A DNA stretch of 64,000 bases from Vairimorpha necatrix (taxonomy: Eukaryota), in the NCBI GenBank assembly GCA_036630325.1, contig CP142728.1, positions 1,054,001 to 1,118,000 on the forward strand, in the 5' to 3' direction. Below are positions 1-60,414 of this stretch, piece by piece. Under the pieces are notes generated by a model. That model saw nothing but the letters and a program-made list of their open reading frames with translations. It was not told the origin of the DNA and made no database searches. Positions within the stretch are counted from its first letter, which is position 1. The number at the start of each line of letters is the position of its first letter. The translations under genes and the position numbers were made by a program.

Positions 1-2270
1 AATATAAAATACAGAAATATACCACAGGCCCCAATGAAAGGAGCACAAGAAACAATCAACAAATTATTAGAACAAGGATATATAAAATGTTCGACATCAG
101 CTTGGTGTAATCCCATAAGACCAGTATTGAAACCAGATGGCACTGTTAGAATTACAAAAAATATGCAATTTCTGAATAACCTAGTTGAAGATAACAACTA
201 TACAACACCTGTAATGCAAAACATAGTAGATGCCACGCGAGGCAAAAGATTTTTTACAGTTATAGATCTGACAGATGCCTACTATTAAATATACCTGAAA
301 CCTGAACATAAATATAAAACCGCATTGTATTTTAAAAATAAACTACACCAATACACACGGATGCCACAAGGCTTTAAGAATTCACCTGGCATGTTTCAAA
401 TGATAATGGATAGACTACTAGAAAACCACCTTGAAACTGCTCGTTGCGTCTATTTAGACGACATAATAATTTTTGGAACAACAGAAGAAGAACATGACAA
501 TAACCTAGCTAATGTTTTGACAATACTTGAAAAAAACAACTTCGAGGTTAACCCAACTAAATTATAATTTAAACAAGAAACTATTAAATTATTAGGAATG
601 ATGATCGATGGAAAGAAACAATATCCAATAGAACAAAATCAAAAAAGGTATTAGATTTTAAAGTACCAACCACAGTTAATGAGGTACAACGATTTCTAGG
701 ATTAGCCAATTATTACAGAAGGTTTATCTCAAACCTATCTACAATTTTTGCTCCGCCTTATGAATTACTTAAAAAGAAGAATGAGTTTATATGGAAGAAG
801 GAGCAACAAAAAGCATTTGATATTATTAAAGAAAGAATCAACAGTAAGATTGCTAGACATAAACCTGAACACGACAAACTCTTTATACTATCCACCGACG
901 CATCAAATACAGGAATCGGTGCATGCCTAGAACAAGAGCACAATAACGAAATTGCAGTAGTAGATTGGGCATCAAAGAAGCTGACAGATGCTGAGAAAAA
1001 ATATGGAATTACAGAAAAGGAATTTCTAGCGATGGCTTGGTGTATTACACACTTTGATTATTATCTACGAGGAAGAAAGTTTAAAGTAATAACAGATCAT
1101 TCTGCAATTTTATTATGAAAGACAAACACATTTTTGGAAACCTACGACTAGAACGAATGAGAGAAAAATTACAGGATTATGATTTCGAAATTGAATATCG
1201 AAAAGGCAAAGAACTAATAGACGCCGATGCAATTAGCAGGATTTATGAGGATCCAAAAGGAGTTGAAGAACTTAGAATTAAAAATTAAAACGTATTAATC
1301 GCTTCTGATGGGAAGTGGTACTATAAAGTAAATGAAAATGAAATTAGATATTTCCCCGAAGTTCTTGAAAGAAAAGATATTTTATATAAAGCACACGAAG
1401 TACACACCGCGCATGGTGGAATAAGTGCCATGACTTACGAATTGAAAAAGAACTATTATTGGCCAAAAATGACAGAATCAATAACAAATTATATAAAAAA
1501 CTGTGAATCATGTGTCCGAAACGATCAAAAAAGCTTAGGAGGTGAAGAATTTGTAGAAACACAGAGACCGTTAGAAATATTTGGAATAGACCTAATGTTT
1601 ATTGACCAGAAGACGACACTTATGACTTGTATAGATTACTTTACACGTAGATGTATGATGAAACCCTTTCAATCAAAGAAAGCTAGCGTTTGTAGAAATG
1701 CAATAACAGAAATGTTTCAAGAGATTGGAGTTCCAGAGATAATTATTACACAATGGAAAAGAATTTACAGCTACAACTATTAAAGAAATCATGTCTAATA
1801 TGTTAATAAACCACCATAAAATTTCTATAGACATGCATCAGTCTAATGGTAGGATAGAAAGATTACATAGGAAAATTTGGCAAGCAAAAAAAAAAATAGA
1901 ATGTAATCAAAAGGAAACATTAGAAGAAATTTTATATGATGTAGAAAATAAAATTAATAATACATTTAATAGAGCAATAGGTTGTACCCCGAACGAAGCA
2001 TGGGATGATCCTGATAATAAAACATTGAAAGAATTGAATAAAAAAGATTCAAAATACGGAAAATAATTTAAAAAACTTCCAAGTGAAAAATTTGATATTG
2101 GAGAACAAGTGTTTATTCAACAAAATCCAATGCAGGCACAGGACAAGCTCAACGATAAATACATTGAAGAGGGAATGATACATACTGTGTTAGAAAATGA
2201 CTCTTACTTAGTAAAAGTAAACGATGAACTGATCAAAAAGAGCCACTCTCATCTCAAATCAGTACCAACT
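1..2270 (+). mobile_element. Decayed Ty3/Gypsy LTR retrotransposon pol (RT - RNase H - integrase), 5'-truncated by window edge
   Basis: ORF fragments in Gypsy order: RT (SAWCNPI, IDLTDAYY, MPQGFKNSP, YLDD), RNase H (STDAS, YGITEKE, FKVITDH), integrase (YYWPKM..C..C, GIDL, IDYFTR, SNGRIER). Several stops and frameshifts. Confidence 0.9.
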
Positions 2271-2520
2271 ATATGATTGCTTGTTATAAAAGCCAAGTTA
2301 TAAAAAATACTAGCAGACCGTAAATGTATTTTTAAGCAGGAAGTTGGATGGCTATAAATAGCAATATTATTTTTAAATACCCCTTATGTCTACTATTCTC
2401 AACACTTACAATTATCTTTAACAAATATAATCCAAAAAAGAATAAAAAATTTGTTTTTGTGACGGCCCAAGAAGTGGGGGGAAAAGTAGCCATAGATATA
2501 ATCGGCTCAGTAGAAAATCG

Positions 2521-3310
2521 TTTTTTTTTTCTTGCAAGTAAGAGGTAGGGAGAAACCTTACATAGGGACCAGAGGGATTTGGGTGTGATCCTCATCCAAC
2601 TGGTACTGTGAGATTCTTACTCACTAAAACTCCCTCCAGACAACTTTCCGGTGCAGCAAGCTCCGCCGTATCCATTGAACTTTGGCTCCAGGAGACACTT
2701 ATCATTTATACCTCAAATCGCGTCCAGAGTGACCTCACAGCGGATATACTTTACAGGCATTGTTATCTATAACCCGAGGAGAGACATCATCGTACTGACT
2801 CAAAGGTCCCTACAATCATCCGTATTGCACACACGGCTCCTTACACGACCACATCCCCAGCCCGGCGTTTTATTGGGCTGCGTTGACCACCAGTCTCCCA
2901 CTAGTTTCGGCCACCGTGTCACAGAATCATGTAGGATAGGGTCCACGAGACCTTCTATTGCCCTACTTCGTTTAGTCTCTTAGTTAGCTCTAGGATCCCA
3001 CTCTAGAGTGCACCAGCCATGGGCTCTAACTAGGCCGTACCCATTAAATACTTTTATGTGTCATTAAGTCACCAAAGGGCGATACTGCTTTTTGGCCTTG
3101 AGGTGCGTTTCTACACTAGATGCTAATCCCCTTGTTGCTGGACAAACACAAGTTTCATTGAATCAACTTGAATATTATCGTGGACATTTTCATCATTTGA
3201 GTTGTTCAAACTGCATCATAGAAAGTAGAAACAATTTTGGTGCCCCTGGGAATCGAACCCAGCCATTGCTCAATGGAAGCATTGCATTCTACCACTGTGC
3301 TAAGGGCACC
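2521..3310 (-). mobile_element. tRNA-derived SINE, full-length copy A
   Basis: Minus strand starts with a tRNA-like head (3310-3238) and ends in A10 (2521-2530). Flanked by the 13-bp direct repeat AGTAGAAAATCGT (2509-2521, 3312-3324). Multiple homologous copies in the window. Confidence 0.88.
3238..3310 (-). ncRNA. tRNA-like SINE head (Pol III A/B boxes; Gly-like), probably not a functional tRNA
   Basis: GGTGCCCTTAGCACAGTGGTAGAATGCAATGCTTCCATTGAGCAATGGCTGGGTTCGATTCCCAGGGGCACCA: perfect 7-bp acceptor stem, T-arm CTGGG-TTCGATT-CCCAG, A box TAGCACAGTGG. Anticodon arm irregular. Confidence 0.75.
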
Positions 3311-4378
3311 TAGTAGAAAATCGTATATAATATCTGAAATCGATTACTTTACAAGAAAAGGATTTGCCAAGATAATAGGTAGTAGGCAAAATCGTAATGT
3401 GCTCAATTTTGAGAAAAAACTACATAAAGATTTAAAAATCCAGATGCTAATTATAAATTTGTCTGAGAAAATCTGAGCAACAAAATCCAAGACTTTGCCA
3501 GAGAACAGAAATTTGACTGCATTATACCTCCTTGTTTCATCATTAATCAAATGGAAGGTTAAAAGATTTAACAGAACAATGCAAGACTTGATATATAAAA
3601 ATAAAAACGACAGCCTTCTTACAAATAAAGCAACTTAAGCTGTAAGGGTATATAATGAGTCATATCACACTGGGATAGAGATGGCCTAAGAAGAAGCGGC
3701 GAAATAAGAAAAAGATCGAAAATTAAGAGAAATACAATTCAAAAAAAGAATCAAATTAATGAAGAAAACTATGATATACCAAATATCATAAGATATATTT
3801 CTAAATTCTTTCCCTCCAGATTCGCCCAGTTTTCCCTCTAACATTTCTTTAAGTATTTTACCCGGAGGGGGGTACGGAGGAATAGAAAGAAGAGATAAAA
3901 TTAATAATAAAAATATTTTACATACTTTCCTCAGTGGCGGATACCACAAAAACCCAACAAAAGGGGGAGGGAATACAAAAAAAATGGTGATATTGTTTTA
4001 ATTAAAATGGGAGTAGGCTTAAATAGAGACAAGCCCAGATTTAAAGCTAGAGGAATAATTGTATATAATGCAGGTGAAAATCAATACAACATTAAGGCGA
4101 GAAAACGGGTTATCAAAAGACACGCCTCACAACTTAAGTACATTATAGACGAGCTTTCCTCTTGACCAGTGGGATGTTGTTATTATTTAAAAATTTATAT
4201 TTTTTTTTTCTTTGATTTTATGAACAGTGATCTTGAAAACAAAAATTTTAATATAGAGATATGTTGACAATATTAACAATTATGAGGGGTTACTGATGTT
4301 ATATAAAAATAATATTAAAATTCGTCTTTCAAATTTAATAAATTTTCTTTTAAATATCAATAAACATATACATATAAA

Positions 4379-5185
4379 GGCTAAAGGTGCTTTAGATCCC
4401 CCTCTGAGGGTGTCCACTTTATTTTTTCGAACCCCAAAAACGAAGTGCAAAATAAAGGAGGAGCAGGTTTGGGGCCCAAATTACTAAGCACTTATGACAT
4501 TAAAAACAAGAAATAAGCATACATTTATGCCCAAATTATATTTTAATATTAGTTTTTACAATCATATAAATTAACAAGCATTTTTTACCGTTCTGATTTT
4601 TTAGAATTGGGGACCAAAACGCCCCCTCTTAGGGTGTGCACTTTATTTTATTGAACTCAAAAAAACAAAGTTGAAGCAATCATTAGCACTCAAATTACTT
4701 GCATCTTTAAACATAAAAAATACCAAAAAAATAAATATTCGAAGACGAAATTTAATTTAAAAAAAGAATATAACCATAAAATTATATAATTCTAAATAAT
4801 TTCTCATATTTAAAATTAATTTTTTGATTAAACAATTTTTATAGATCTTTGAACATTTATTTAGTTTTTCTTATATAAATGTTATTTATATTTTAAATTT
4901 TTGGTTAATTATTAAGGTAGTTTTGGAAGAAAATCTCTTTTTATAATAAACCAAAAATTGAAAAAATAAGAAGGGCAAAAAAGAAACAATACCTTAAAAG
5001 ATTATTATAATTATAACTAAAATTATTTTCCGTTGTGTAAGCATATATTTATTTGTTATATTTAATGTCATAAGTGCTTAGTAATTTTTGTCCCCTTCCT
5101 GCTCCTCCTTTAATTTGCACTTCGTTTTTGAGGTTTAAAAATAAAGTGAAACAACTTTGGGCGGGGTCTTTCGGATCCCAGCTCC
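4379..5185. mobile_element. Non-autonomous MITE-like element, possibly Merlin-type
   Basis: ~130-bp imperfect inverted repeats (~4400-4525 vs ~5045-5170), internal direct copy of the left-end motif at ~4620-4700, GG..CC termini, 8-bp direct repeat CATATAAA at 4371-4378 and 5186-5193. Confidence 0.7.
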
Positions 5186-16440: not shown

Positions 16441-18423
16441 TTATTTCTTTGCTTTTTTATTTTTCCCAAGGCTTTTTCTTTCATTCGTCTCCATGTAAGC
16501 CATTCCGTCAATACCAGTAGAGCCTTTTAATAACCCAGAATACACACCTACATCTTCTTTGTCTTCTTCGTTCTCTTCACTCTCTAATTCTTTATCTGAT
16601 GATAAAAGAACTGATACTAATAATTCTTTTTGTTGCGATCTCGTCTTGTAGACTCTTTTTTCATTTTTTTGTATGTCGTTTATTTCAGTCAAGATATTGA
16701 AGGAATAGCCTTGGTCTACTAGAAATTGCTGCCTTTTTGAGGAATAGAACATTTCATCTGTGTCTTTGCTAACCAAAGAATAGAAAAACACTTTAAAATC
16801 CGGATCATTTCTCCTTTTTGCACGGAGAATACGCCCAAGTCTTTGCGCTTCTTGTCTTCTTGATCCAAAATGAGAAGATATTTGGATAAGACAAGTGGCT
16901 TCTGGTAAATCAATTGACGTATCTCCGACTTTACTAAGGAATATTGTGTTTATTAAAGGATTTGTTTGAAATTGTTTTAGAATTCTCATTCTTTCTGTTT
17001 GTCCAGTAGGCCCGTAAATGTACGGCTTACCAAGTTTCAGGGCGTATGATTTCAAAGCTGCGACGCTGTCAGAAAAGACGATAATTTTGTCGCCTTTGGC
17101 TTCGTGCATATTAATTAAATATTCACAGACTTGGAATTTAGTAGGATTCATAATCGACAAAAGTCTTTTCTTTCGACTATTTTGTATAAGATATTCTCTA
17201 TAAAAATCTCCTGTCATTCCACACCAAACTTCGAAACATTCTACTTTTGCTATATGGCCTCTTGCGCTTAAATCTTGCCAATCCGCCTCGTAGAGTTTTG
17301 GGCCGATGAGGAAATTTAAGTCTTCGATTTTGTCGTCTTCCCTGACCAAAGTGGCAGTTAGGCCCAATTTACAATGATGAGTCACGAGTGATATAACTTT
17401 TCTAAACATCATAGCAGGGACTACATGTACTTCGTCCAGGAGAAGAAGGCCCCATTCAGTATTTTGAATATTGTCCATGATCTTTTGCGCCTCTGCTGAT
17501 CTTTTCCCGTTATATGCCAACATGGTGTAAGTAGTAATTAATATTCCACTTTTTTTTGTAAACCATTCCTTGTGGTCTGACGTGAATCTACAAATACTCT
17601 CGCCGTTTATATTAGTAAAAAACATATTCTGCTGCTTCCACTGTTCTACAGAGACAGCAGATGTACACAAAATTAGACATGATTTTTTTATAGTAGTCAG
17701 CGCAGTTATTCCTACGAGTGTTTTACCAGAGCCACAGGGCAAAACAATAATTCCTGATCTAGCTCTTCCATTACAAAACATTTTATTTAGACATGTTTCC
17801 TGGTAAGATCTAATAATAGTAGAAGGCTTCAAATCTATTTCTAAATTTTCTAAAGTGTCATCATTTCTAAAATCGTATTCTTCAATTAATGGATAGTCAA
17901 TTTCTATACATCTCTTTTTTATTAATTCTACGTTTGTAACTTCCACATTATCTTCACTAATAGTCAAATTATTTCTAATAACTTGGTCATTTAAAAGTTT
18001 ATTCAAGATTTCTTTATTAGAAGCTTCTATAAAATATTTACTAAATCGTATTAATAGTTTAATTTTCCCGTAACTTAACGTACATTCAATAATAAAATTT
18101 TTTACAGATCTGGGCATAAAATTTTTTGAAAAATGTGATAAAGTTGTCAAAATATCGTCAGTAGATAAACCGACACTTACAGCGGCATATAAAGAATATG
18201 AAGTTAATTGATATTCATGAATATATTTCGGCCTGCTTACTGGCTCCGCGATCGCGATTAAAAAATGACTAGCCTGAGTTGAATTGTTTTTAAAAGTTTC
18301 TAAGATTATCAATGCATCATAATTTATCCAAAGAGTGTGGTCTTGGTGATTTTCCTTTAAAATCAATTCTTCTGTAGGGAATTGATGCTTCTGAGCTTTT
18401 TTTGGCAGCAAGACATTATTCAT
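16441..18423 (-). CDS. SSL2: TFIIH helicase XPB (Ssl2/Rad25)
   Basis: [38 protein letters not shown]. Start placed at the ATG after CCCAAA (18423). Confidence 0.97.
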
Positions 18424-18810
18424 TTTGGGTATAAAAAAAAAGAGATTAAATTTACCCAAACAAAATAAGCAATTTATTTAAATTTATGGTTTCTTAATAG
18501 GCAGTTTACAAAGATATTATGACTTTGTCCTGTTCTGAAAACACATCTTATAAATTTATGCCAAGTTTATGCGGAAAATTTTACTCTCCCCCGAAAAAAA
18601 CACAAAAAGAAAAAATCTTCATTATTTTATGATACATCAACAGGCAATAAAGTGTCATTTTATTCTGTTTTGTCTATAAAGAAAGTACTTATCTTTATCT
18701 TGTTTATAAATAACTCATAGGACTAAATAATATTTTCTTTTTGAGTATCTTTGAAGCCCCTAAATCAAATTATTTCTTTTTGATTTTTTTGTTTTTTTTT
18801 TATCCCCAAA

Positions 18811-20577: not shown

Positions 20578-21465
20578 TTAATTACTAGCAAGGTTAGCAA
20601 TACTGTGAACAGGAAATCTAGCGCCATTTTTAAATTTTCTCAATACCGCACTGTATACAGGTTGTACTTTCATGGTACTAGTATTTAAAGCTACAATATA
20701 GTCTCTTTCTGTATTATTTCGTACATCCATATAAGTATTCATTGTATTCTTCGATTCATTTTCTGATTTATTGAAATTACTCAACTTAACAAATTTTTTA
20801 TTAAGTAACGTTTTAGTATTGTCAGATAAGGCATTTATAGTACCGCCCATTATTATTACCTTATTTTTAATAGCTTCAGTATTATTTATATCATACAAAA
20901 TTGATGAAAGCTCAAGAGAGTCAACCAAAGATTTAGTGCTGTAAAGATTTATATTAATAACTATAAATTCAATATCTTTCTTAATCATTTTAAACAACGC
21001 CCACGAAGCAAAAGCATTTTTAACTAACGTATCATTTGTTTTAAAAACTCCGGAATTGAGAACTCGTAATTCTTCAGTGTCGTATAAAATCGGGTCGAAT
21101 GTCGTGTTTCCATTGGTAGGACTAATAACTTTAGATGTTTCACCTTCAACAATGCCATAATGAGGCAGTATCCTACTCCTCAAATCTTTAAGTTGGTCTT
21201 CATCAACTTCCTGAAGGCACAATATTGGCACATGTGTGTTATCAATTAGCTTTATTAAATCATTAGTTTGTTCATTAGAATTAAAATGCGTTTTCTTTTC
21301 CATATTGTAAGTTATAATAGATATATCTCCAAAAGATTTAACATCCACAGTCTTGCTATGATCTTTTAAGAATCCTGAGATCTCTTTTTGTCCACTAAGT
21401 AGATTTGGATCATATTTCGAGATTATAAACGAGAAAGCATTGCCTATTAATAGTACTAATATCAT
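20578..21465 (-). CDS. Predicted secreted endonuclease/exonuclease/phosphatase (EEP)-fold protein with degenerate catalytic motifs
   Basis: Signal-peptide-like MILVLLIGNAFS; ITYNM, LCLQEV, PILYD, IVININL, IMGGTIN, RDYI motifs. Start reassigned to the ATG at 21465. Confidence 0.7.
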   Translation of the reverse strand: MILVLLIGNAFSFIISKYDPNLLSGQKEISGFLKDHSKTVDVKSFGDISIITYNMEKKTHFNSNEQTNDLIKLIDNTHVPILCLQEVDEDQLKDLRSRILPHYGIVEGETSKVISPTNGNTTFDPILYDTEELRVLNSGVFKTNDTLVKNAFASWALFKMIKKDIEFIVININLYSTKSLVDSLELSSILYDINNTEAIKNKVIIMGGTINALSDNTKTLLNKKFVKLSNFNKSENESKNTMNTYMDVRNNTERDYIVALNTSTMKVQPVYSAVLRKFKNGARFPVHSIANLASN

Positions 21466-21575
21466 TGTGAAACAATAATGCAAAAATTTATATATAAAAT
21501 GTGAAACGTAATGTAACAAACCAAAACAAGTTTCATAACTGACTAATATAATTACAAACTCATTTATTAAGTAAT

Positions 21576-22523
21576 ATGGATAATATAGAAAAAATATATT
21601 TTTTATTAAACGAATTATATGATAGAAGTATAGATAATAAAAATGATGCAAGTAATTTTTCCAATAGCAAAAACGAAAAGTCTCAGGATGAAGTGTTCGT
21701 CGACGAAAAAATAAATGAAATGAACAAGAATATTAACAAAGAGGTCGAAGCTAGTGATGATGAGATGAGTATTAACGAAAGTATTAATAATTTATTAATT
21801 AACGAGAAGGTTGAACCTGAAAAGAAAGAGAGGTATTGGAATAAAAAATATCTTCCGTATTCATATTACATTTCTAAAATAAGTTCTAATCCTAGACTCT
21901 ATTTATATAAAGCAGCCAAGGCAGAGTCATTAGAAATTTATAAAATATCACCAAAAAAACTTAGTACATTAATAACACAATTAGATATATTTCTATTGCA
22001 AAATATCAAACCAGCAGATCTTTTGACTTCTGAAATCACATACCTAAAAAACAAGAACACTGGATTAATCAATTACATTTATGAACTACTTAAAGATAAA
22101 AAATTTCACTCATATTTTCTTAAAGTATTAAAATATTTACTAAAGAAAGAGAATTACAATTCAGCTGATTGTATAAAGAAAGCTTTTTTACGGCATAAAC
22201 TTGAAAAGAAAATTTTAGACAAATTAGTTTTTTATAATATTAAAAATTATGAAAAAAATGTACATACAGACAGTAAAAAAGAGATACCGCTTTTTGATGT
22301 ATTAATAAAAGATTTAGAAGATGCGAAAAATAATAAAAACCACGATGAAGCTTCTATTCGTTTTTGTAATATAGTAGAAATGTTATTGGTACTTCAAAAT
22401 AAGAAGATTAAAATCAATAAGAAGAGAGAACATTTTTTACTGTATAAAATTTTTATCAATATGGATAATAAAGAAGTCAAACAAACAAAAGTTTGCGATG
22501 ATTACTTGTTTATATTTTTGTAA
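21576..22523 (+). CDS. RasGEF (Cdc25)-like domain protein
   Basis: LSTLITQLDIFLLQNIKPADLL, FLKVLKYL..ENYNSA, IPLFDVLIKDL resemble RasGEF conserved regions. Confidence 0.6.
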   Translation: MDNIEKIYFLLNELYDRSIDNKNDASNFSNSKNEKSQDEVFVDEKINEMNKNINKEVEASDDEMSINESINNLLINEKVEPEKKERYWNKKYLPYSYYISKISSNPRLYLYKAAKAESLEIYKISPKKLSTLITQLDIFLLQNIKPADLLTSEITYLKNKNTGLINYIYELLKDKKFHSYFLKVLKYLLKKENYNSADCIKKAFLRHKLEKKILDKLVFYNIKNYEKNVHTDSKKEIPLFDVLIKDLEDAKNNKNHDEASIRFCNIVEMLLVLQNKKIKINKKREHFLLYKIFINMDNKEVKQTKVCDDYLFIFL

Positions 22524-26901: not shown

Positions 26902-27327
26902 TTATAATTTATTTGTTATGTATTTAGAAAAGAAGTCCCTGTTTATCACTGTCTTCTTCTTAAGCAACTCCTTAATTTCTGAAATATCAAAATCTATTTT
27001 ACTGAATAAATCATAGTCAAATATCTTGTGATTAATGGCATATTTAAAAATATCTGCTACTTCGAAATTATTAATATTTGTACAGACAATGTAGTATGAC
27101 AAATTTGTTAGTTTACAAACAAAATCTATATCTTTAATATTTACTGATAATTTATCAACAAGATAATAAAATTTATCTTTTCTATCAGTAGGAATTTTAT
27201 CAAAAATCTTGTCTATTTCTACTAGCCATAAATACTCGTCTTTTATATTTAAATTATCAACATATTCTTTCTGAACTTTCCACTTGGCTAAATTGTACAG
27301 TTCATTTAAAATATTAGTTATAGTCAT
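26902..27327 (-). CDS. Hypothetical protein (141 aa), copy 1
   Basis: CCC before ATG, stop followed by AATAAA, ORF kept in the duplicate. Confidence 0.7.
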   Translation of the reverse strand: MTITNILNELYNLAKWKVQKEYVDNLNIKDEYLWLVEIDKIFDKIPTDRKDKFYYLVDKLSVNIKDIDFVCKLTNLSYYIVCTNINNFEVADIFKYAINHKIFDYDLFSKIDFDISEIKELLKKKTVINRDFFSKYITNKL

Positions 27328-27344
27328 GAGGGTAAGAAAATTAT

Positions 27345-27536
27345 TTATTTTTTTATTTTTTCTTGTATTTTGTTACGTAGATCAGTGTTTTCTATTTCTA
27401 AGATTTCTAGTCTTTTTTCATAATAAATTATTGATTTCTCTAGTGACTGAATATCGTCTTGTAGATTTTTAATAGATTCGTGTAAATCAACATCTTCAAT
27501 ATTTGCAGACTTGTCTCTGTTAATTTTATAAGACAT
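27345..27536 (-). CDS. Small coiled-coil protein, copy 1
   Basis: Heptad-like LHESIKNLQDDIQSLEKSI. ATG follows a C-run. Conserved in the duplicate. Confidence 0.6.
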   Translation of the reverse strand: MSYKINRDKSANIEDVDLHESIKNLQDDIQSLEKSIIYYEKRLEILEIENTDLRNKIQEKIKK

Positions 27537-27750
27537 GTTACAGGGGGGAAATATCATAACTGAGAAATGTATTAAACAAATGAAGATTATTAGCCTATTT
27601 TATTGATGACCAAAATATATACAAAAGTTTGTTTGTTCCTAAAAATATAATTAAATTTGTAAAATATTAGCATAAATAAATGAGGACAAAAATAGAAAAA
27701 TAATTTTCGAAAAAAAGAAAACATATAAAGAGGTCTTTGTATTTTTCATA

Positions 27751-28396
27751 CAACTGATACTTTGAGATTCTTACTCACTAAAACTCCCTCCAATAATCCT
27801 AGCAATGTTATTCTGTCTTAGAGACTATTAGAACATGCTAATCACGTCTAGCAAGATTCACAGCAGATACAAATATCTGGCAAGATTTGAATATTCCGAG
27901 GAAATGTATCATCGTACTAACATAAAGGTCCCCACAATCATCTGTATCGCACATGTGGCTCCTTATACCGCCAATTTAACAGTCCGGCATTTTTATTGGA
28001 CTGCATTGATCACCAGTCTCCCATTGGTTTCGGCCAGCAGGTAAGAATCTTGTAGGATAGGGTCCACTGGACCTTCTATTGCTTTACTTCGTCTAGTCTC
28101 ATAGTTAGCTCTAGGAAACCACATTAAAGTGCACCAGCTATGGGTTCCAACTTGGCCGTACCCATTAGATACTTTTGTGTATAATTAAGTTACCAGTGGA
28201 GTATTACTGTTTTTCGGCACTGAAGTGCGTTTCCATATAAGATGTATTGAATCAACATAATATTATCATGGGCATTTTCATCATCTTGTTTGTTTTAACT
28301 GCATCATGGAAAGTACATACAATATCGGTGCAACTAGATTCGAACACAGCCATTGCTCAATGAAAGCATCGCCTTTGACCACTGGACTGGGGCACC
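27751..28396 (-). mobile_element. SINE copy B (diverged; tRNA head present, 3' end missing)
   Basis: Colinear similarity with copy A from GAGATTCTTACTCACTAAAACTCCCTCC to GGGCACC. Confidence 0.85.
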
Positions 28397-28659
28397 TTAT
28401 TTTGGGTTTAGATTACATTTGTCAGTCATTTTAATATCATTTATCGCATCATGCAAATCGAGCTTATATTTGTCTTTACCAAGTTGACTTATAACTAACC
28501 AAAAACAACTCTGTTTTTAAACGCTAAATTTCGCGATCTACCAAACATTAATACGGAAGCATCTCTTAAATGAAATAAGAGAACACCTCTGAGTAATTCA
28601 AATATATATATATATAGAAAATTATCGATGTTTATATGTATCAAAACAAGGTTGGTTTG

Positions 28660-28965
28660 TGATGTGGAGGTGCGTGTGAGATATAGATGATAGTGAAGAC
28701 CTTTATGCTAGTACGACGATGTCTCTTCTTGAGTTACTAGTCAAATATCCTCTGTATGGTCACCCTGGACACGATTTGAGATATGGACGAAAAACATCTT
28801 CAGGTGCAAAAATTCGATTTGATTCTGTAGAGCTTATTTGCCGGCAAGTCATATGGGGAGTTATAGAGAGAAAAAATCGTACAGTTTTAGTGGATAAGGA
28901 TCAATCACAGCTCCACCTGGTTCCCATGCAATGTTTCTCCCTTGTTGTTACTTGTAAAGAAAAAA
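28660..28965 (+). mobile_element. SINE copy C (5'-truncated, diverged, A-rich tail)
   Basis: Matches the 3' ~330 nt of the SINE sense strand, ending TTACTTGTAAAGAAAAAA. Confidence 0.75.
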
Positions 28966-29167
28966 TCGAATAAAAATAAATTTGCAACTTGTCCATTGCA
29001 CAAAAATCAATTTTTGTTTGCCAGTTAGTTTTTAAGATTGCGAATAAACTGATAAAAAGACATAAATGGTTATGTGTTGTTTTTAATTTGAATCAAAGGC
29101 TATTATTTAGAACATGATGTTGACATAAAAGAAAATATTGTAATTGTATACATTTATTGTATATTAG

Positions 29168-31669
29168 TTATGGAATATATTTTAAGGTACCTTCACATTT
29201 TTCTATAATTCCTTTTTCTATTAGAATTTTCACGCTACTGCTAAAATTGTCATTCGAGAAGATAAATTTGTCTGTGTGCATTTCTTTTATTGTTTTTAAA
29301 GTGTCAGACTCAGACATATTTTTATATTTTTTCATTGTATTAGATATTTTACAGAGGTAATACATTTCTTTATCAATCTCATGTTCTTTATTTAGATCTT
29401 CTTTAATAAAATAATCCACTACATTTGTAGTCTCTGATTTGCAATTTAAAATAAATTTATCATTTTCAGCGATTAATAATTTGGAAGTTATTAAAGATTT
29501 TACTGTAATTTCTAAAAGAGATTGAGTCATGCCTGTCTCATTTTTAATTATTAATTTTGTTATAAATTTATAGTTATTAAATAAATTAATAATTATGTAT
29601 TGTAGAAAATTAAGTCTAAACTCTTTATCTCCTAATTCTATAACAACTACGCTGTATTCCCAAGCCCAATTTACTCTACTTTTTTCTACATTCTTCATTT
29701 TATCTGTAAAAATAGCAGGAATTTTAATATTAATATTTTCAATATCCAAGGCCCAGGCAGATTCTGTTAATAAAATTATACCTGATTTTGTACTAGTAAA
29801 ATCTTTCATTTCACTAAACATGATTTCTCCTTTAAGTTTTAAATCTCGATCTTCACATGTCAATAATGTAAAAATCTCTAATTCTTTGTAATAATTCACC
29901 TCATACAAAAGAACTCGACGACTTACTTCGCGAAGATATTTTTTAAAAAAATCTATTTTATCATCTACCAAATCGTAAAGATAAACGAACACTCTAAGAA
30001 GCGCACTGTCTTTATACGAAACATTTGGTGCCTTTGATAAATCAGGTAGACTTACATTTCGTTTATGTGTGTAAACTTGATTTTTCATTGGAGGTTCTTC
30101 TTTAGATTTTAATTTCTCTGGATTATCAAATGGTATTATTTCTTCATAATTAACTTCTAAAATTTCTTCATTATTAGAACTTGACGATGACTCATTGTCT
30201 CCCCAATAATCAATGCCTTCTTCTTCATTAAAATTACAAATTTCACTTCTAGCGTAAAAATCAATAAATCCTTTTCTTAAAGTTACGTATTTTTTTTCTA
30301 ATACACAATCTCCAGAAATAATTAAATTACTAAACTTGATAAGTCTAGTACTTAATGAAGGATTAAGAGAATTATAAACTTCTTTTAACTTTTTCTTAAG
30401 AATTAAATTGTACATCTTAGAATTATGAAATCCTACCTTGACTACATGATTGAACAATGTATAAAAAATGTACAAAGTCTCAATATTTTTATCAAGTAAA
30501 TGATTAAAACTTAATATTTGATTAGTTAAAAATTTTAGTAATACACTTTCTAAAATATCAGAAGAAAATTTTACAATTGATAAATGTTTCGTGATAATTT
30601 TCATTTGTTTTAAAGCAGGCGTAGTGTAAGTGTATAAATTCTGAATATTACTAGAAAATAAAGCATAAAAATCATTTAAGGGGAAATGAGTCATTTCGTT
30701 CTTTGTAAAATTAGAAATTGTTTTACAATTTGATTGTAAATTTGTTTCTTTTTTAAAATCATTAATTCTATTACTCTTAACTTGGGGAGCATTCCCATTT
30801 CTAGTACCTGGAATAAAATCATCTGAACTAAAAGATTTTTTATTATCAGTCATGCTATTTCTAATTGTATTTAATATTTCTACTGGTAAATTATGTTCAA
30901 TTAATATTTTATAAATCTCGTTTTTTATCCATTTCTTTTTTTGTACAATTAAAATATCTTCAATTATTAAATCTAACTTGTTCCAAGATTCTTCTAAAAA
31001 AATATTTTTTCTTCTAACTCTTTCATTTTTTATAAAAATATTTACACTTTCTAAATATTCAAAGATATCATCTTTTTTAGATTTTTTAACAAAATCTGTG
31101 CATTTATCAATTATATTAGAAAAAGCATATTTTTCATATCTTTCTGAATAATATAAAAGTGGCATTTTCGGATCTACAATTATATTTTTTAAACTTTCTA
31201 TACATATTTTTATTTCTTCTGGATTATCATGAAAAATTATATGTTCTCCTAAATTAATTTTTTTATATTTGAAACATTTTTGTAAAATACATCTCTCCCA
31301 AAGTAAAAAGGCAAAGTTGTATATAGATTTTGTTGTTATATATTGATTTAAATAATCAGCAAGTTCATTTATACTTTTAACAAAGGCTAAATATTTTTTA
31401 TAAAATATTGTATATTCACTAATCCATCTATCTGACTCAAAAATTTTATGCTTATTGGCTTTTAAAATTTCATAGAGAAAATCTCCTATTTTCCAATACA
31501 AATCTTCTACAAATTTGTGAGAAGTTGATGTACAAATAATGTATACATTGTTGTAGATAATTAATGCACTACATTTCTTGTTATTGTATAACAAGTCCAA
31601 TTCATAATGTATTAAACTCCACATTTTCTCAAATTGTATTTCTGTCAAATAAATTTTTCCAATGTTCAT
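29168..31669 (-). CDS. Cullin family protein, copy 1
   Basis: N-terminal IYNNVYIIC..EDLY, DKIDFFKKY..RRVL, LTESAW, C-terminal TMKKYK..LIEKGIIE..YIP. Confidence 0.85.
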   Translation of the reverse strand: MNIGKIYLTEIQFEKMWSLIHYELDLLYNNKKCSALIIYNNVYIICTSTSHKFVEDLYWKIGDFLYEILKANKHKIFESDRWISEYTIFYKKYLAFVKSINELADYLNQYITTKSIYNFAFLLWERCILQKCFKYKKINLGEHIIFHDNPEEIKICIESLKNIIVDPKMPLLYYSERYEKYAFSNIIDKCTDFVKKSKKDDIFEYLESVNIFIKNERVRRKNIFLEESWNKLDLIIEDILIVQKKKWIKNEIYKILIEHNLPVEILNTIRNSMTDNKKSFSSDDFIPGTRNGNAPQVKSNRINDFKKETNLQSNCKTISNFTKNEMTHFPLNDFYALFSSNIQNLYTYTTPALKQMKIITKHLSIVKFSSDILESVLLKFLTNQILSFNHLLDKNIETLYIFYTLFNHVVKVGFHNSKMYNLILKKKLKEVYNSLNPSLSTRLIKFSNLIISGDCVLEKKYVTLRKGFIDFYARSEICNFNEEEGIDYWGDNESSSSSNNEEILEVNYEEIIPFDNPEKLKSKEEPPMKNQVYTHKRNVSLPDLSKAPNVSYKDSALLRVFVYLYDLVDDKIDFFKKYLREVSRRVLLYEVNYYKELEIFTLLTCEDRDLKLKGEIMFSEMKDFTSTKSGIILLTESAWALDIENINIKIPAIFTDKMKNVEKSRVNWAWEYSVVVIELGDKEFRLNFLQYIIINLFNNYKFITKLIIKNETGMTQSLLEITVKSLITSKLLIAENDKFILNCKSETTNVVDYFIKEDLNKEHEIDKEMYYLCKISNTMKKYKNMSESDTLKTIKEMHTDKFIFSNDNFSSSVKILIEKGIIEKCEGTLKYIP

Positions 31670-31894
31670 ATTTTTTGTTTATGCAATATTTTGAATTAAA
31701 AGTTTATAAATCAATTATTTTTATTTTGTTTATAAAAACAAACAAATTCATAAAAATTAATTATTTTTAAAAAAATAACAACGCTACGGTTAAAAATTTT
31801 ATTACTAATTCTGATACCATCATTTTATATTTGACATCGACTCCTATTTTAAACCCCTTTTAATGATTGAGTAGTCTTGATCTTCGTGCCCATC

Positions 31895-34595: not shown

Positions 34596-34795
34596 TTTCT
34601 TGGGGGTACAAACTTAATTAATGTCGCGCGCCCAACGAGCGACCGCGCCCAGTGCGCGACCGGATTTTTTCCTAATTTTTTAAACTAACAGAATTTTTAA
34701 CATTGGAAATTTGTAATTATACAAGCTATGTATTTCTGTATGTTAACTGTTTGGATTATTCAACTACCTTTTTTATGACCCCTAAATAAATTTTC

Positions 34796-46186: not shown

Positions 46187-46702
46187 TTTTACAAGTAAAA
46201 AGATCCTCCACACACCAAGCTAACTATTTAGAAATGTGATCACAATCCAGGTTATTGAAGATGCAACATCAAACTTTTTAAAATGAACTTGCCAGAAATT
46301 GCAACCTTAGTATCCATCAGACCTCTGCCCAGAAAAATAAATGATCCACAGCAGATATGTCGACTAATAATAGTTTTAACACGAAATGTTTTTACTATCT
46401 TGTGTATTTCACACACAGCTCCTTACATCACCACCCGGCACTTTATTACTCTGCGTTGACCACCAGTTTCGGCCAAAGTGTCTAAGAATCCATTCATAGG
46501 GCAAACAGGCCTTCTTGCTCTACGCAATCTCTTAAATTAACATGATGAAAGAGCAAAGTGCACACTCATAAGGCCTTTCGATATGTGCATAGGCCTTTTT
46601 ATACATTAAGATGCTCTGGCTATACTATTTTCTGCCTTGGGGTCGTTATTTTACTAGACATAAATCCCCGTGGCTGGACACACACAAGTTTCATTGAATC
46701 AA
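46187..46702 (-). mobile_element. SINE copy D (old, highly diverged)
   Basis: Shared blocks GCTCCTTACA, CTGCGTTGACCACCAG, TTTCGGCCA, GCTGGACA..CAAGTTTCATTGAATCAA. Confidence 0.75.
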
Positions 46703-47384
46703 ATTAAAAATAACATAGACAGATTATACCATTCATAGAGTGCGATACCTTTTTAGTGTTTATCAAAATTAAGCCTGCCTTTTATGTGTCAGTACAATGC
46801 TTTCGATTTCTAAGCTACGTGCCTTATACATTTTTTAGACTTTATAATGCCATAAAAGCTTAGGCCTATACAATAATTATAGTAAACATGTAAGTAATGC
46901 TTAAGAATATCCTAAGGGAATAAAGGAATTTCTCCTATTATTTTTTTTTCGACCACATATAAATCAACTATAGCTTACTGCATTTATTGTCAAATTTTAC
47001 AGTTAAGTTTAAACAAGTTAGATCTTTTTAATGTACTGCATCATTGCCTTAAGATTAAAAAAAATATAAATCTTTTCAATAGTAACAAAAGTGTTTGCAT
47101 TGATACTTAATTAGATTTGTAACAAGAACTAAGTTAGTTGCAATCGAATGTATTTCAAAAAGACACTTAACTACACAACCCTAGTTGTTTTAATATGCTA
47201 AAATGCTCCATCTATAAGTTTATATTTGTAATATGCTTTTAAACCCCATACAAGTTTAAAGTTAATCCAAGGTATTTTATAGATATTAAATCCGTAAAAA
47301 TATTATTACATCTTTTTTCCATATTTTAAAATATGGAAAAAAGATGCAATTTTTTAATAAATAATTTTCTCGCCCCATTTTCTT

Positions 47385-49900: not shown

Positions 49901-50557
49901 TTTTATTAGTAATCTTGATGAAAATATCGTGGTTGACAAAATTAGTAAATAAACACTGGTTATATTGAAATTAGTTGTATTTTTGCAGATAATTTTTTTT
50001 ACAAGCTTGGTAGTACTTGATGGAAATGTCATATACATATTAAACTAAGCATTCGAATGATTCTTCCTACATTTTTAATGATTAAATTGAAGAGCTTAAG
50101 TTATTCGCGCTGACTTGTAGATTCTTAACTACATTGTATTGGATGTGGAGGATTCACCCTACCTTTTTTATAAAAATTTGTACTGCTTTGAAAAAAGGCA
50201 AATATTTTCAGTGCTTCGCCTATGCAGAAATATATCTTGATTTTTTAATTTTTTGCACCTATGGCGATAAAATATAATATCGCTAGTAGGTCTAATACAA
50301 ATTTAAGATTTGGAATGGTTATATTAAACTCCTTATCATTGTGTATAACATGGGCTTAAAAGAAATTGAACGAGTAAGCTTGCATATTATCGGCAGAGGA
50401 GGCGTATTTGATTTAAAGTCTCAAGGCTCGTTTAATTATTCGGTCTTGCTAGATAATGTTTTTAAAACTTTTTTTAAACTTATGACCCGACAAAACATCA
50501 TCTAAATAGTAGAGAGCATGGGGTTAGATCATTATTGACAAGCTTGAATTTTTTAAG

Positions 50558-51345
50558 TTTTTTTTTCTTGCAAGTAAGAGGTAGGGAGAAACCTTACATA
50601 GGGACCAGAGGGATTGGGGCGTAATCCTCATCTAACTGATACTGTAAGATTCTTACTCACTAAAACTCCCTCCATATAACTTGCCGGGTAGCAAGCGCGC
50701 CGGGGCCATTAGACTTTGGCTCCAGAGAACGCTTTCAATTTATACCTCAAATCGGGTCCAGAGTGATCTCACAGCGGATATACTTAACGGGCATGGTTAT
50801 CTATAACCCGAGGAGAGACATCATAGTACTGACTCAAAGGTCCCTACAATCATCTGTATTGCACACACGGCTCCTTACACGATCACATCTTCAGCCCGGC
50901 ATTATTATTAGGCTGCGTTGACCACCAGTCACGCACTAGTTTCGGCCACCGCGTTACAGAATCTTGTATGATGGGGTCCACGAGACCTTCTCTTGCCCTA
51001 CTTCGTCTAGTCTCTTAGTATGCTCTAGGATACCACACTTTTGTGCACTATCTATGGGCTCCAACTATGCTGTACTCAATAGATACTTTTATGTATCATT
51101 AAGTCACCAAAGGGCGATACTATTTTTGGGGGCTTTGAGGTGCATTTCTACACTAGATGCTAATCCCCTTGTGGCTGGACACCAACAAGTTTCATTGAAT
51201 CAACTTAATGATTATCGTGTACATTTACATCTTCTGAGTTGTTCCAACGGCATCATAGAAAGTAGGAAAATTTTTGGTGCTCCTGAGAATCGAATTCAGT
51301 CTTTGCTCAATATGCAACGCCTTCAACCACTGAGCTTAGGGCACC
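50558..51345 (-). mobile_element. tRNA-derived SINE, full-length copy E
   Basis: Colinear with copy A end to end, poly-A tail, 12-bp TSD AATTTTTTAAGT (50547-50558, 51350-51361). Confidence 0.88.
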
Positions 51346-52610
51346 TTCAAATTTTTTAAGTGGCATGTTTGAATTTCTTTAGTGTCATATCTCTTTGAAT
51401 TTTATGAGCTCTAATATGGAGAGAAATGAAAGAATAACAGTGCTAGTCATTATAACTTAGCGAGAGATCAAAACGATCTTTTGTTGAAATATCGAATAAA
51501 GTTTTTTTTACATTCGATATCGTAGTATTAATTATTAAAAACACATAATCAACCTACGGAGAATACTGCGCAGTGAAAAATAATATTTTTGCCGAGATAG
51601 ACCTTTTATTTAACAACATATTTGCTTGTCATTTGACTTTTAAAAACGTCTCCGATGAATAAAATTCACGGGTTACTGCAATCATGGCTATATCTGTGTT
51701 AACCAAAAAATCATAAAAAACTTGGCATTACAAGAAAAATGCTCTCGTTAATTCTAGTAAATCGTGATATCCTTGATAAAATTAATAAAAGGAGTATCTT
51801 AATACGAAATTAATAGGCACTCTAAAACCTACTTTTTTTTAAAAAAAGAAGGGAATAATGCTCAAATGGTACCAAGTTATGTATATTCGTAATCCCTTAG
51901 CAAAGCACATAAGAAATCGTTAACAAATAGTGGTCAAACTGTTTGGTGCATGTGTATAATTAAATTAAAAGATTGACTGCATTTGAGTTAAAACTTGGCG
52001 CCTAGAACTCAGAAAATTGTATAAATTTATTGATATTAATTTATCTATATTTTAGAATAATATAAAAACATGTCATAATTTTGTGCCAATTTTATACGAT
52101 CGCGTTATAATTTAAAATTATATGAGTTAGGCAGTATAATAAATTTCTGCCATCTTATTATTCACACTATTGACCTTTTATATAATTTTTTTTGTGCTAA
52201 GACGAGATTATATATTTAATCTCTACAGTTTGGGAATTAAAACAAGTCTTAAATGTTTTATGTTTAGATTATAGGCATAATTTCACAAATTTTACAGTTA
52301 TTTGATGGCTGGCTAGAAAAAAACAATAGATGACTTTTTGTAAGTAACTTTCAGATTTTAGAGAAGTTAGATATCATATATTATAGAAATTCAAACATGG
52401 CGCTATCTACTCAAATCTCGTAAAACAAAAGAGGGAAACATTTTTAAAACTACACTATTTTTTTTTACAAAAAAACAAAGAAGCTATAGGTATGGTACAA
52501 AGAGCACTTACAAGTATTTCAAAGATTCACGCAATGACAATTTTAGCAGAAAAAAAATTTTGCCAACAAATCGATTTTAAAGGGGACAGTCCATTTTTAT
52601 ATCATATTTA

Positions 52611-58775: not shown

Positions 58776-59080
58776 TTTTTTTTTGCAAGTAACAACAAGG
58801 GAGAAACATTACATGGGAACCAGATGGAGCTGTGATTGATCCTTATCCACTAAAACTGTACGATTTTTTCTCGCTATACTCCCTCTTATAACTTGCCGGC
58901 AAATAAGCTCTACAGAATCAAATCGAATTTTTGCACCTGAAGATGTTTTTCGTCCATATCTCAAATCGTGTCCAGGGTGACCATACAGAGGATATTTGAC
59001 TAGTAACTCAAGAAGAGACATCGTCGTACTAGCATAAAGGTCTTCACTATCATCTATATCTCACACGCACCTCCACATCA
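58776..59080 (-). mobile_element. SINE fragment F (duplicate of C)
   Basis: Mirror of 28660-28965; tail reads TTTTTTTTTGCAAGTAA on +. Confidence 0.75.
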
Positions 59081-59343
59081 CAAACCAACCTTGTTTTGAT
59101 ACATATAAACATCGATAATTTTCTATATATATATATATTTGAATTACTCAGAGGTGTTCTCTTATTTCATTTAAGAGATGCTTCCGTATTAATGTTTGGT
59201 AGATCGCGAAATTTAGCGTTTAAAAACAGAGTTGTTTTTGGTTAGTTATAAGTCAACTTGGTAAAGACAAATATAAGCTCGATTTGCATGATGCGATAAA
59301 TGATATTAAAATGACTGACAAATGTAATCTAAACCCAAAATAA

Positions 59344-59989
59344 GGTGCCCCAGTTCAGTGGTCAAAGGCGATGCTTTCATTGAGCAATGGTAGGGTTCGA
59401 ATCTAGTTGCACCGATATTGTATGTACTTTCCATGATGCAGTTAAAACAAACAAGATGATGAAAATGCCCATGATAATATTATGTTGATTCAATACATCT
59501 TATATGGAAACGCACTTCAGTGCCGAAAAACAGTAATACTCCACTGGTAACTTAATTATACACAAAAGTATCTAATGGGTACGGCCAAGTTGGAACCCAT
59601 AGCTGGTGCACTTTAATGTCGTTTCCTAGAGCTAACTATGAGACTAGACGAAGTAAAGCAATAGAAGGTCTCGTGGACCCTATCCTACAAGATTCTTACC
59701 TGCTGGCCGAAACCGGTGGGAGACTGGTGGTTAATGCAGTCCAATAAAAATGCCGGACTCTTGAATTGGCGGTATAAGGAGCCACATGTGCGATACAGAT
59801 GATTGTGGGGACCTTTATGTTAGTACGTTGATACATTTCCTCGGGCTATTCAAATCTTGCCCGATATTTGCATCTGCTGTGAATCTTGCTAGACGTGATC
59901 AGCATGTTCTAATAGTCTCTAAGACAGAATAACATTACTAGGATTATTGGAGGGAGTTTTAGTGAGTAAGAATCTCAAAGTATCAGTTG
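59344..59989 (+). mobile_element. SINE copy G (duplicate of B)
   Basis: Begins GGTGCCCCAGTTCAGTGGT..GGGTTCGAATC; mirror of 27751-28396. Confidence 0.85.
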
Positions 59990-60205
59990 TATGAAAAATA
60001 CAAAGACCTCTTTATATGTTTTCTTTTTTTTCAAAAATTATTTTTCTATTTTTGTTCCTCATTTATTTATGCTAATATTTTACAAATTTTATTATATTTT
60101 TAGGAACAAACAAACTTTTGTATATATTTTGGTCATTGATAAAATAAACTAATAATCTCCATTTGTTTAATACATTTCTCAGTTATGATATATCCCCCCT
60201 GTAAA

Positions 60206-60397: not shown

Positions 60398-60414
60398 ATA
60401 ATTTTCTTACCCTC

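What the first reader, a model, noticed from the sequence alone, without database searches (positions are those of the whole stretch)
2509..3324. A long tRNA-derived SINE family with TPRT hallmarks in a microsporidian-like genome
Seen: on the minus strand a 73-nt tRNA-like head (acceptor and T stems intact, A and B boxes), a ~710-nt non-coding body more GC-rich than the flanks, and a poly-A tail. Copies A (2521-3310) and E (50558-51345) have different TSDs of 13 and 12 bp. Older or truncated copies lie at 27751, 28660 and 46187, with duplicates at 58776 and 59344, giving five independent insertions in 64 kb. Established: tRNA head + A-tail + variable-length TSD + 5' truncation is the signature of a SINE mobilised by a LINE. 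Inference: an abundant, long-lived Pol III retroposon family. I am not aware of well-described SINEs in microsporidia, but could not search.
Basis: partly seen in the sequence, partly recalled or inferred. Interest (0 to 1): 0.82.

Follow-up and report, generated by a model that had tools for sequence, protein, structure and literature searches.

The report
tRNA-headed SINE family in a microsporidian
This is a real, repeatedly inserted, non-coding "jumping" element about 790 bases long, with a tRNA-like front end and an A-tail, in a Nosema-like microsporidian parasite; it is an ordinary kind of element (a SINE) in a group where none seems to have been described in detail.

Summary
Copy A (2521-3311, minus strand) has a 73-nt tRNA-like head, a ~700-nt body with no protein-family match, an A10 tail and a perfect 12-13 bp target-site duplication. 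Copy E (50558-51349) is 87.8% identical and has a different 11-12 bp duplication. Three older insertions (B, C, D) and two duplicated copies also lie in the window; C is 5'-truncated and keeps its A-rich tail.

Contigs of public runs from two related organisms pile up on exactly 2510-3307, at summed depths 10-1000 times the flanks. One contig joins 2520 to 3324 and carries a single copy of the target, so it is an empty site.

The host is a microsporidian of the Nosema/Vairimorpha clade.

Best reading (0.88): a tRNA-derived SINE, transcribed from an internal Pol III promoter and inserted by a LINE's target-primed reverse transcription. Transcription and the partner LINE are inferred. The window holds no LINE, and no whole genome or RNA run was available.

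A weak Rfam match of the last ~106 nt to the R2 3'UTR element is only a lead.

In the literature I found only an uncharacterised "SINE 0.18%" row for N. bombycis.

Verdict: new member of a known kind, moderate interest.

The parts
2521..3311 (-). Copy A, full length: A10 tail 2521-2530, body, tRNA-like head 3238-3310, one extra A at 3311
3238..3310 (-). tRNA-like head of copy A (CAT anticodon; A box 3302-3292, B box 3259-3249)
   Evidence: ARAGORN; Rfam tRNA 29.5 bits
2509..2520 (-). 3' target-site duplication of copy A (CGATTTTCTACT)
   Evidence: retained as the single copy in the empty-site contig of run X2
3312..3323 (-). 5' target-site duplication of copy A
2541..2646 (-). 3'-terminal domain: best-conserved block of the family, with a weak sub-threshold match to the Rfam R2 3'UTR element
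   Evidence: 20.4 bits, gathering score 38; MFE gives the same architecture
50558..51349 (-). Copy E, full length, 87.8% identical to A: A9 tail 50558-50566, decayed head from 51345, 4 extra bases 51346-51349
50547..50557 (-). 3' target-site duplication of copy E (CTTAAAAAATT)
51350..51360 (-). 5' target-site duplication of copy E
27739..28397 (-). Copy B, old: head present, last ~60 nt lost, profile positions 2-731
59343..60001 (+). Duplicate of B, made by the inverted segmental duplication (96.5% identical to B)
28662..28965 (+). Copy C, old and 5'-truncated (profile 462-792), with an A-rich tail
58776..59078 (-). Duplicate of C (97.0% identical)
46190..46822 (-). Copy D, oldest and heavily decayed, with internal deletions. 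nhmmer aligns 46386-46817; the head remnant and 3' end motif were seen by eye

Best explanation
This is a family of non-autonomous, tRNA-derived retroposons (SINEs), about 790 nt long, living in the genome of a Nosema/Vairimorpha-clade microsporidian.

Proposed mechanism:
1. A master copy is transcribed by RNA polymerase III from the A and B boxes inside its tRNA-Met-like head, through a ~700-nt non-coding body that is GC-rich relative to the genome, into the encoded A-tail (inferred).
2. The RNA is captured through its 3'-terminal domain and/or its A-tail by the reverse transcriptase and endonuclease of a co-resident LINE (inferred).
3. It is copied into a staggered chromosomal nick by target-primed reverse transcription. 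This leaves an 11-13 bp target-site duplication, and 5'-truncated copies when copying is incomplete (the footprints are shown).
4. Inserted copies are dead on arrival and decay towards the AT-rich composition of the genome (shown: GC 0.47 falling to 0.38 with age).
For: Structure of intact copies:
- Head, body, A-tail and perfect flanking duplications that differ between copies A and E. TSDs are readable in 2 of 2 intact copies.
- All 3 well-preserved copies that keep a 5' end (A, E, B) start at the same head position. D keeps only a decayed head remnant at the same end.
- Copy C is 5'-truncated but keeps the 3' end and an A-rich tail.

Non-coding:
- 0 of the open frames of 50 aa or more that overlap any copy, on either strand, match Pfam.
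- A protein search with the longest antisense frame found nothing.

Insertion shown directly:
- One contig of run X2 (depth 320) joins 2520 to 3324. It skips 803 nt and keeps one copy of the 12-nt target.
- Its flanks differ from the window at 23 or more listed positions, so it comes from a related genome.

High copy number with exact boundaries:
- 247 records of X1 and 531 of X2 lie on the stretch.
- Summed depth in the bins 2510-3307 is 190-663 (X1) and 7,320-391,731 (X2). The flank bins read 0-51 (X1) and 0-1,167 (X2).
- Loose ends at 2521 run into T-runs (A-tails) and then diverse flanks. Loose ends at 3310 also run into diverse flanks.

Age series: A-E identity is 0.878 and A-B 0.73, and GC falls with age.

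Host and possible partners:
- The host is a microsporidian.
- LINE families exist in Nosema species: 4-15 families in Parisot 2014, Table 1.
- Dong-R4 LINEs make up 1.04% of N. bombycis in Pan 2013, Table 2.
Against: - No LINE is in the window: 0 of 167 open frames of 50 aa or more lying outside annotated host genes match a non-LTR RT or endonuclease; the only RT belongs to a degraded Ty3/gypsy element.
- No whole genome was held, so the partner and any shared 3' end are untested.
- The sense strand carries one T4 run (position 682 of 780), inside the conserved 3' block. It would stop Pol III in organisms where T4 suffices. The scarcity of T-runs (1 seen, 2.55 expected) is not significant (P=0.25).
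- At 790 nt the element is long for a SINE.
- The head is a clean cloverleaf only in copy A (ARAGORN finds 1 of 5 heads). It has C, not U, before the anticodon, a 3-bp D stem and an A-A mismatch in the anticodon stem.
- Folding energy is not unusual (z = -0.76 for the whole element, -1.2 for the 3' domain).
- TSDs could not be read in the 3 old copies.
Confidence: 0.88

Rival explanations
1. These are retro-copies of a Pol II non-coding transcript (or of a tRNA-plus-downstream read-through transcript). Some LINE picked them up repeatedly, as it does for processed pseudogenes. On this reading the head is a passenger and not a promoter.
For: The element is long (790 nt) and ends in an A-tail like an mRNA. 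There is a T4 run inside it. No RNA evidence shows a Pol III start.
Against: No AATAAA lies in the last 40 nt before the tail. Hundreds of contigs in two related organisms start exactly at the head, which is typical of a self-promoting family and not of a processed pseudogene. The head keeps intact A and B boxes in the youngest copy.
Confidence: 0.06
2. The copies are 5'-truncated or internally deleted copies of an autonomous LINE, and the 790 nt is simply that LINE's 3' end.
For: Copy C is 5'-truncated, as LINE copies are. The last ~106 nt weakly resemble a LINE 3'UTR model, R2.
Against: All 3 well-preserved copies that keep a 5' end start at the same base of a tRNA-like head. Summed depth in related genomes drops sharply at that base. 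No RT or EN remnant adjoins any copy.
Confidence: 0.03
3. This is a genuine tRNA-Met gene with its neighbourhood, spread by segmental duplication and not by retroposition.
For: The window does hold a 5.5-kb inverted segmental duplication that copied B and C. The head passes the Rfam tRNA gathering score by 0.5 bit.
Against: The flanks of A and E share nothing beyond the element. Each has its own TSD and an A-tail. There is an empty site.
Confidence: 0.01
4. This is a non-autonomous element moved by LTR-retrotransposon or DNA-transposon machinery. Degraded Ty3/gypsy and Merlin-like elements are nearby.
For: Copy A lies ~450 bp from a degraded Ty3/gypsy pol. A Merlin-like transposase lies 1.3 kb from E.
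Against: the repeat finder was not run; the alignments of the copies show no shared sequence beyond the head and the A-tail, so no LTR. The TSDs are 11-13 bp and of variable length, next to an A-tail. That is not the fixed short duplication of integrases or DDE transposases (established knowledge).
Confidence: 0.02

Closest known systems
tRNA-derived SINEs of animals, plants and fungi (for example rodent B2/ID, silkworm Bm1, Magnaporthe MgSINE; names recalled, not compared by sequence here)
   Same: A tRNA-like head with A and B boxes, a non-coding body, an A-rich tail, variable TSDs, many dispersed copies and dead-on-arrival decay.
   Different: It is about 790 nt, against the usual 100-500 nt. 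The body is far more GC-rich (0.47) than the host genome (0.27). The host is a microsporidian. No sequence comparison with SINEBase, Dfam or Repbase was possible.
The 'SINE' row (28,669 bp, 0.18% of the genome) in the repeat table of Nosema bombycis, Pan et al. 2013, PMC3614468, Table 2 (passage seen)
   Same: Same clade of microsporidia and same class label. It may be the same family or a related one.
   Different: Identity with this family is untested.
Long SINE-like elements of fungal plant pathogens (Foxy of Fusarium; Eg-R1 and EGH24-1 of Blumeria; recalled from memory)
   Same: Non-coding, A-tailed, unusually long (0.7-1.6 kb as I recall) retroposons in fungal-lineage parasites.
   Different: Relationship unknown; no sequences were available for comparison.
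Entamoeba SINEs paired with LINEs (PMC3118788, abstract seen in the listing)
   Same: SINE/LINE pairs in an AT-rich parasitic protist with a compact genome.
   Different: As I recall, those SINEs lack tRNA heads and share both ends with their LINEs. No partner is identified here.
R2 3'UTR RNA element (Rfam RF00524) and the R2-derived non-autonomous 'SIDE' elements of Drosophila (the latter recalled)
   Same: The last ~106 nt align to model positions 79-206 of 212. An outer helix encloses two hairpins, and the match ends 10 nt before the A-tail, which is where a LINE 3'UTR would end. The dominant LINE class reported in N. bombycis (Dong-R4) belongs to the same R2-like group (the grouping is recalled).
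   Different: The score is 20.4 bits against a gathering score of 38. Copy E scores 14.8 and copy C gives no match. R2 and its SIDEs insert in 28S rDNA; this family inserts at varied AT-rich sites with 11-13 bp TSDs.

Membership tests
SINE (tRNA-derived) | 5' head derived from a small Pol III RNA, with internal A and B boxes | tested here: met
   ARAGORN tRNA-Met(CAT) at 3238-3310; Rfam tRNA 29.5 bits against 29. The A-box-like and B-box-like motifs were read; the consensus motifs are recalled.
SINE (tRNA-derived) | No coding capacity (non-autonomous) | tested here: met
   No Pfam match for any open frame of 50 aa or more overlapping the copies, on either strand. The protein search with the 123-aa antisense frame found 0 hits.
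SINE (tRNA-derived) | Dispersed, multi-copy family with defined ends | tested here: met
   5 independent insertions plus 2 duplicates in 64 kb. 247 and 531 contig records lie on it in two related organisms, with depth steps at 2510 and 3307.
SINE (tRNA-derived) | Flanking target-site duplications that differ between copies; empty sites exist | tested here: met
   A has 12-13 bp and E 11-12 bp. The TSDs of the 3 old copies are not readable. The empty-site contig in X2 keeps one copy of the target.
SINE (tRNA-derived) | A-rich or simple-repeat 3' tail | tested here: met
   A10 in A, A9 in E, an A-rich tail in C. Loose ends in X2 show runs of 14 or more.
SINE (tRNA-derived) | Mobilised by a partner LINE, often sharing its 3' end | not testable with these tools
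   There is no LINE in the window and no genome was held. Pattern scans of three collections found 0 hits. LINEs are reported in Nosema species.
SINE (tRNA-derived) | Transcribed by RNA polymerase III | not testable with these tools
   No RNA run was available to test this.
SINE (tRNA-derived) | Short length (commonly under about 600 nt) | tested here: inconclusive
   780 nt without the tail. This is above the usual range, but there is no strict limit and longer SINE-like elements are on record (recalled).
Functional tRNA-Met gene | Canonical cloverleaf with U33 and complete stems, standing as its own gene | tested here: not met
   C precedes the anticodon, the D stem has 3 bp, and the anticodon stem has an A-A mismatch. 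The head is always followed by the co-mobilised body.
R2 3'UTR RNA element (RF00524) | Score at or above Rfam's gathering score | tested here: not met
   20.4 bits (A) and 14.8 bits (E) against 38; no match in C; not listed in the whole-window scan.

The most novel reading that the evidence does not exclude
The conserved 3'-terminal ~106 nt may mimic or derive from the 3'UTR of an R2-like (Dong/R4-type, restriction-like-endonuclease) LINE, the LINE class reported as dominant in Nosema bombycis. This would then be a tRNA-headed SINE that hijacks an R2-superclade LINE yet inserts genome-wide rather than at one specific site. Its GC-rich body, foreign to a 27%-GC genome, may have come by horizontal transfer from an arthropod host.
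Probability: 0.15. Interest if true: 0.7.

Novelty: new member of a known kind. Interest (0 to 1): 0.45.

Why it matters
Microsporidia are the textbook case of eukaryotic genome reduction, and their mobile elements have mostly been catalogued by protein-based searches or automatic classification. Parisot 2014 used TBLASTX and TransposonPSI. De Albuquerque 2020 used RepeatModeler and has no SINE mention in its text or in the 6 supplement files held. Non-coding retroposons escape protein-based methods and probably sit in the large 'unknown' repeat fraction, which is 14% of N. bombycis.

Here one family makes up about 6% of a 64-kb window and is highly repeated in two relatives. A curated consensus would:
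- improve repeat masking and gene calling in Nosematidae genomes;
- give presence/absence markers for strain and species typing, since an empty site already separates two relatives;
- offer a handle on which LINEs are active, and on Pol III promoters and terminators, in these parasites.

Tried and rejected
- Whole genome: none is held for this window. Genome-wide copy counts, a TSD survey and a search for the LINE partner could not be run.
- Exact-pattern scans: a degenerate 24-mer from the 3' end and a 24-mer from the conserved block gave 0 hits in metagenome contigs, viral contigs and genome contigs (conserved block only).
- Sequencing runs: no RNA holder was listed, so nothing can be said on expression. 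X4 (freshwater metagenome) gave only 6 short pieces, 5 of them under 90% alike, which is not usable. X3 (bat gut metagenome) gave 19 pieces, 17 of them 90% or more alike, over 2611-3297 only.
- Paralogous empty sites inside the window: none; the flanks of A and E are unique.
- Protein search with the antisense 123-aa frame, done to find mis-annotated copies in named genomes: 0 hits.
- Earlier notes of this scan: nothing on this genome or sequence, and the word search returned only unrelated prokaryotic elements.
- T-run depletion as a Pol III signature: not significant.
- Thermodynamic stability: not significant.
- ORF 20578-21651(-), with a weak Exo_endo_phos match (E=0.005), was considered as a LINE endonuclease. 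Its only PDB sequence match is an uncharacterised 257-aa protein (E=7e-4) and no RT adjoins it. Rejected as a partner.
- Dfam, Repbase and SINEBase are not available here.
- bioRxiv supplements and PDF supplements could not be seen. Pan 2013's supplements were not opened, so a SINE consensus hidden there cannot be excluded.

Full report
**What is at the coordinates.**
Read on the minus strand, 3310 to 2521 runs in this order:
- a 73-nt tRNA-like sequence;
- about 700 nt with no protein-family match;
- the end motif ...CTTACTTGCAAG;
- ten A's.

ARAGORN calls the head tRNA-Met(CAT) at 3238-3310. It draws a 7-bp acceptor stem, a 5-bp T arm, a 3-bp D stem and a 4-bp anticodon stem with an A-A mismatch, with C rather than U before the anticodon. 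Rfam's tRNA model scores 29.5 bits against a gathering score of 29.

The stretches at 3302-3292 and 3259-3249 fit the Pol III A-box and B-box consensus as I recall them.

The 12-mer CGATTTTCTACT stands directly after the A-tail (2520-2509). It stands again one base before the head (3323-3312). Counting the adjoining A, the duplication is 13 bp.

**The second intact copy.**
Copy E (50558-51349, minus strand) aligns to A from head to tail at 87.8% identity. Similarity stops exactly at the head and at the tail.

E has an A9 tail and its own duplication, CTTAAAAAATT, at 50557-50547 and 51360-51350. Four extra bases lie between the 5' duplication and the head.

At this base composition, two given 12-mers match by chance with probability of about 6e-7 (my arithmetic).

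**Other copies.**
A profile of A+E, run with nhmmer over the window, gave 7 hits: A, E, B, B-duplicate, C, C-duplicate and D.
- B (27739-28397, minus) keeps the head but has lost the last ~60 nt.
- C (28662-28965, plus) starts at profile position 462 and keeps the 3' end and an A-rich tail. It is a 5'-truncated copy.
- D is aligned at 46386-46817. By eye it keeps a head remnant near 46822 and a recognisable 3' end motif near 46190.

B and C were copied by a 5.5-kb inverted segmental duplication (26907-32345 against 60835-55365, 97.5% identity). There are therefore five independent insertions.

Together the copies make up about 4.1 kb, or 6% of the window (from the coordinates).

GC falls with age: 0.467 (A), 0.449 (E), 0.398-0.404 (B, C), 0.382 (D). 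The window as a whole is 0.270.

**Not coding.**
Together, searches covered all 167 stop-to-stop frames of 50 aa or more that lie outside annotated host genes. No frame overlapping an element copy matched Pfam.

The only retroelement proteins in the window are these:
- a degraded Ty3/gypsy pol at 289-1780 (RVT_1, RNase H, integrase zinc domain);
- an integrase fragment at 35400-36155.

A Merlin-like transposase fragment also lies at 52675-53277. No non-LTR RT or endonuclease is present.

**Host.**
The genes in the window are intron-free and divergent. The XPB helicase at 16441-18459 is 79% identical to those of Nosema granulosis and N. bombycis. Below those come other microsporidia. The window is therefore from a Nosema/Vairimorpha-clade microsporidian.

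**Evidence from outside the window.**
No whole genome was held. One look-up of public runs found four partial holders, and I laid their contigs on 2300-3550.
- In X1, 247 records lay on the stretch; in X2, 531.
- Nearly all lay on 2510-3307. Summed depth there is 190-663 (X1) and 7,320-391,731 (X2).
- The flank bins read 0-51 (X1) and 0-1,167 (X2).
- The tool warns that summed depth is not a copy number. It does show a highly repeated family whose ends coincide with the head start and the tail.
- Loose ends at 2521 run into T-runs of 14 or more and then into unlike flanks. Loose ends at 3310 also run into unlike flanks.

The most telling item is one X2 contig (depth 320). It joins 2520 to 3324 and skips 803 nt. 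It keeps a single copy of the 12-nt target, with one different base beside it. Its flanks differ from the window at 23 or more listed positions.

That contig is an empty site in a related genome, either orthologous or in a paralogous copy of the flank. It shows that copy A arrived by an insertion that duplicated the target.

Exact-pattern scans of JGI metagenome contigs, IMG/VR and GTDB genomes found nothing.

**Mechanism.**
These footprints together are the established signature of target-primed reverse transcription by a LINE acting on a non-coding RNA:
- an A-tail abutting a variable 11-13 bp duplication;
- a common 5' start at a tRNA-like head;
- one 5'-truncated copy that keeps the 3' end;
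- decay after insertion.

Pol III transcription from the head is inferred from the intact A and B boxes of the youngest copy.

The sense strand has one T4 run against five A4 runs, but this is not significant (2.55 expected, P=0.25). The one T4 run lies inside the conserved 3' block. It would be a terminator only if T4 suffices in this organism, which is unknown. As I recall, yeasts need longer runs.

**The 3' domain.**
The last 49 nt are identical between A and E. A 30-nt block (element positions 673-702) is identical between A and the old copy B. Each is the longest exact run of its pair. By my arithmetic, neither run is individually beyond chance.

Rfam, run with E-value thresholds on the element alone, aligns 2646-2541 to positions 79-206 of the 212-position R2 3'UTR model:
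- 20.4 bits, with E=0.09 in the 951-nt search and 0.025 in a 261-nt search; the gathering score is 38;
- an outer helix enclosing two hairpins, ending 10 nt before the A-tail.

An energy-only fold gives the same architecture, with an ordinary z-score of -1.2. Copy E scores 14.8 bits at the same place; two of its C-to-T changes turn G-C pairs into G-U pairs. Copy C gives no match.

I treat this as a lead, not a finding. It is made somewhat more interesting by Pan et al. 2013, who list Dong-R4 as the main LINE type of N. bombycis (Table 2). That type belongs with R2 among LINEs with a restriction-like endonuclease (recalled).

**Literature.**
I ran nine full-text searches and read passages of nine papers.
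- Parisot et al. 2014 (PMC4202319; term search and Table 1 read): 4-15 LINE families in Nosema species, and the word SINE never appears.
- De Albuquerque et al. 2020 (PMC7313128): no mention of SINE in the text or in the 6 supplement files held.
- Pan et al. 2013 (PMC3614468): one table row, 'SINE 28,669 bp, 0.18%', with no description.
- Of the 26 papers that hold both 'Nosema' and 'SINE' as whole words, judging from titles, abstract starts and the passages read, only Pan 2013 reports a SINE fraction for a Nosema genome.

I found no characterised microsporidian SINE. Subscription journals, Repbase Reports and SINEBase were outside my reach.

**Verdict.**
It is a new, or at least uncharacterised, member of a well-known kind. 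It is notable for its length, for a body that is GC-rich relative to its genome, and for its host group. Its partner LINE and its transcription remain to be shown.

Noticed in passing
window 26907-32345 and 55365-60835: A 5.5-kb inverted segmental duplication at 97.5% identity carries a cullin-like gene (29168-31669 and 56069-58570) and SINE copies B and C. The neighbouring HAD-hydrolase genes (33881-34598 and 54200-54917) are only 77% identical, so they come from an older duplication or a different history.
   Followed up: partly
window 289-1780 (+): A degraded Ty3/gypsy pol (RVT_1, RNase H, integrase zinc domain), broken into several frames, lies about 450 bp from SINE copy A. A second integrase fragment lies at 35400-36155.
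   Followed up: partly
window 52675-53277 (+): A fragment of a Merlin-like (IS1595-type DDE) transposase with an HTH domain lies 1.3 kb from SINE copy E.
   Followed up: no
window 20578-21651 (-): A 357-aa ORF has a weak endonuclease/exonuclease/phosphatase match (Pfam E=0.005). Its only PDB sequence match is an uncharacterised bacterial-type protein. It is not adjoined by an RT, so it is probably a divergent host gene and not a LINE endonuclease.
   Followed up: partly
window 4415-5148: Short inverted and direct repeats of 43-102 bp at 86% identity lie in the AT-rich spacer downstream of copy A's site. This may be another small repeat family.
   Followed up: no
run X3 laid on window 2611-3297: Contigs of a bat gut metagenome run carry pieces of the SINE, 17 of 19 at 90% identity or more. 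This suggests DNA of this or a closely related microsporidian in that sample, but only 19 short pieces were laid.
   Followed up: no
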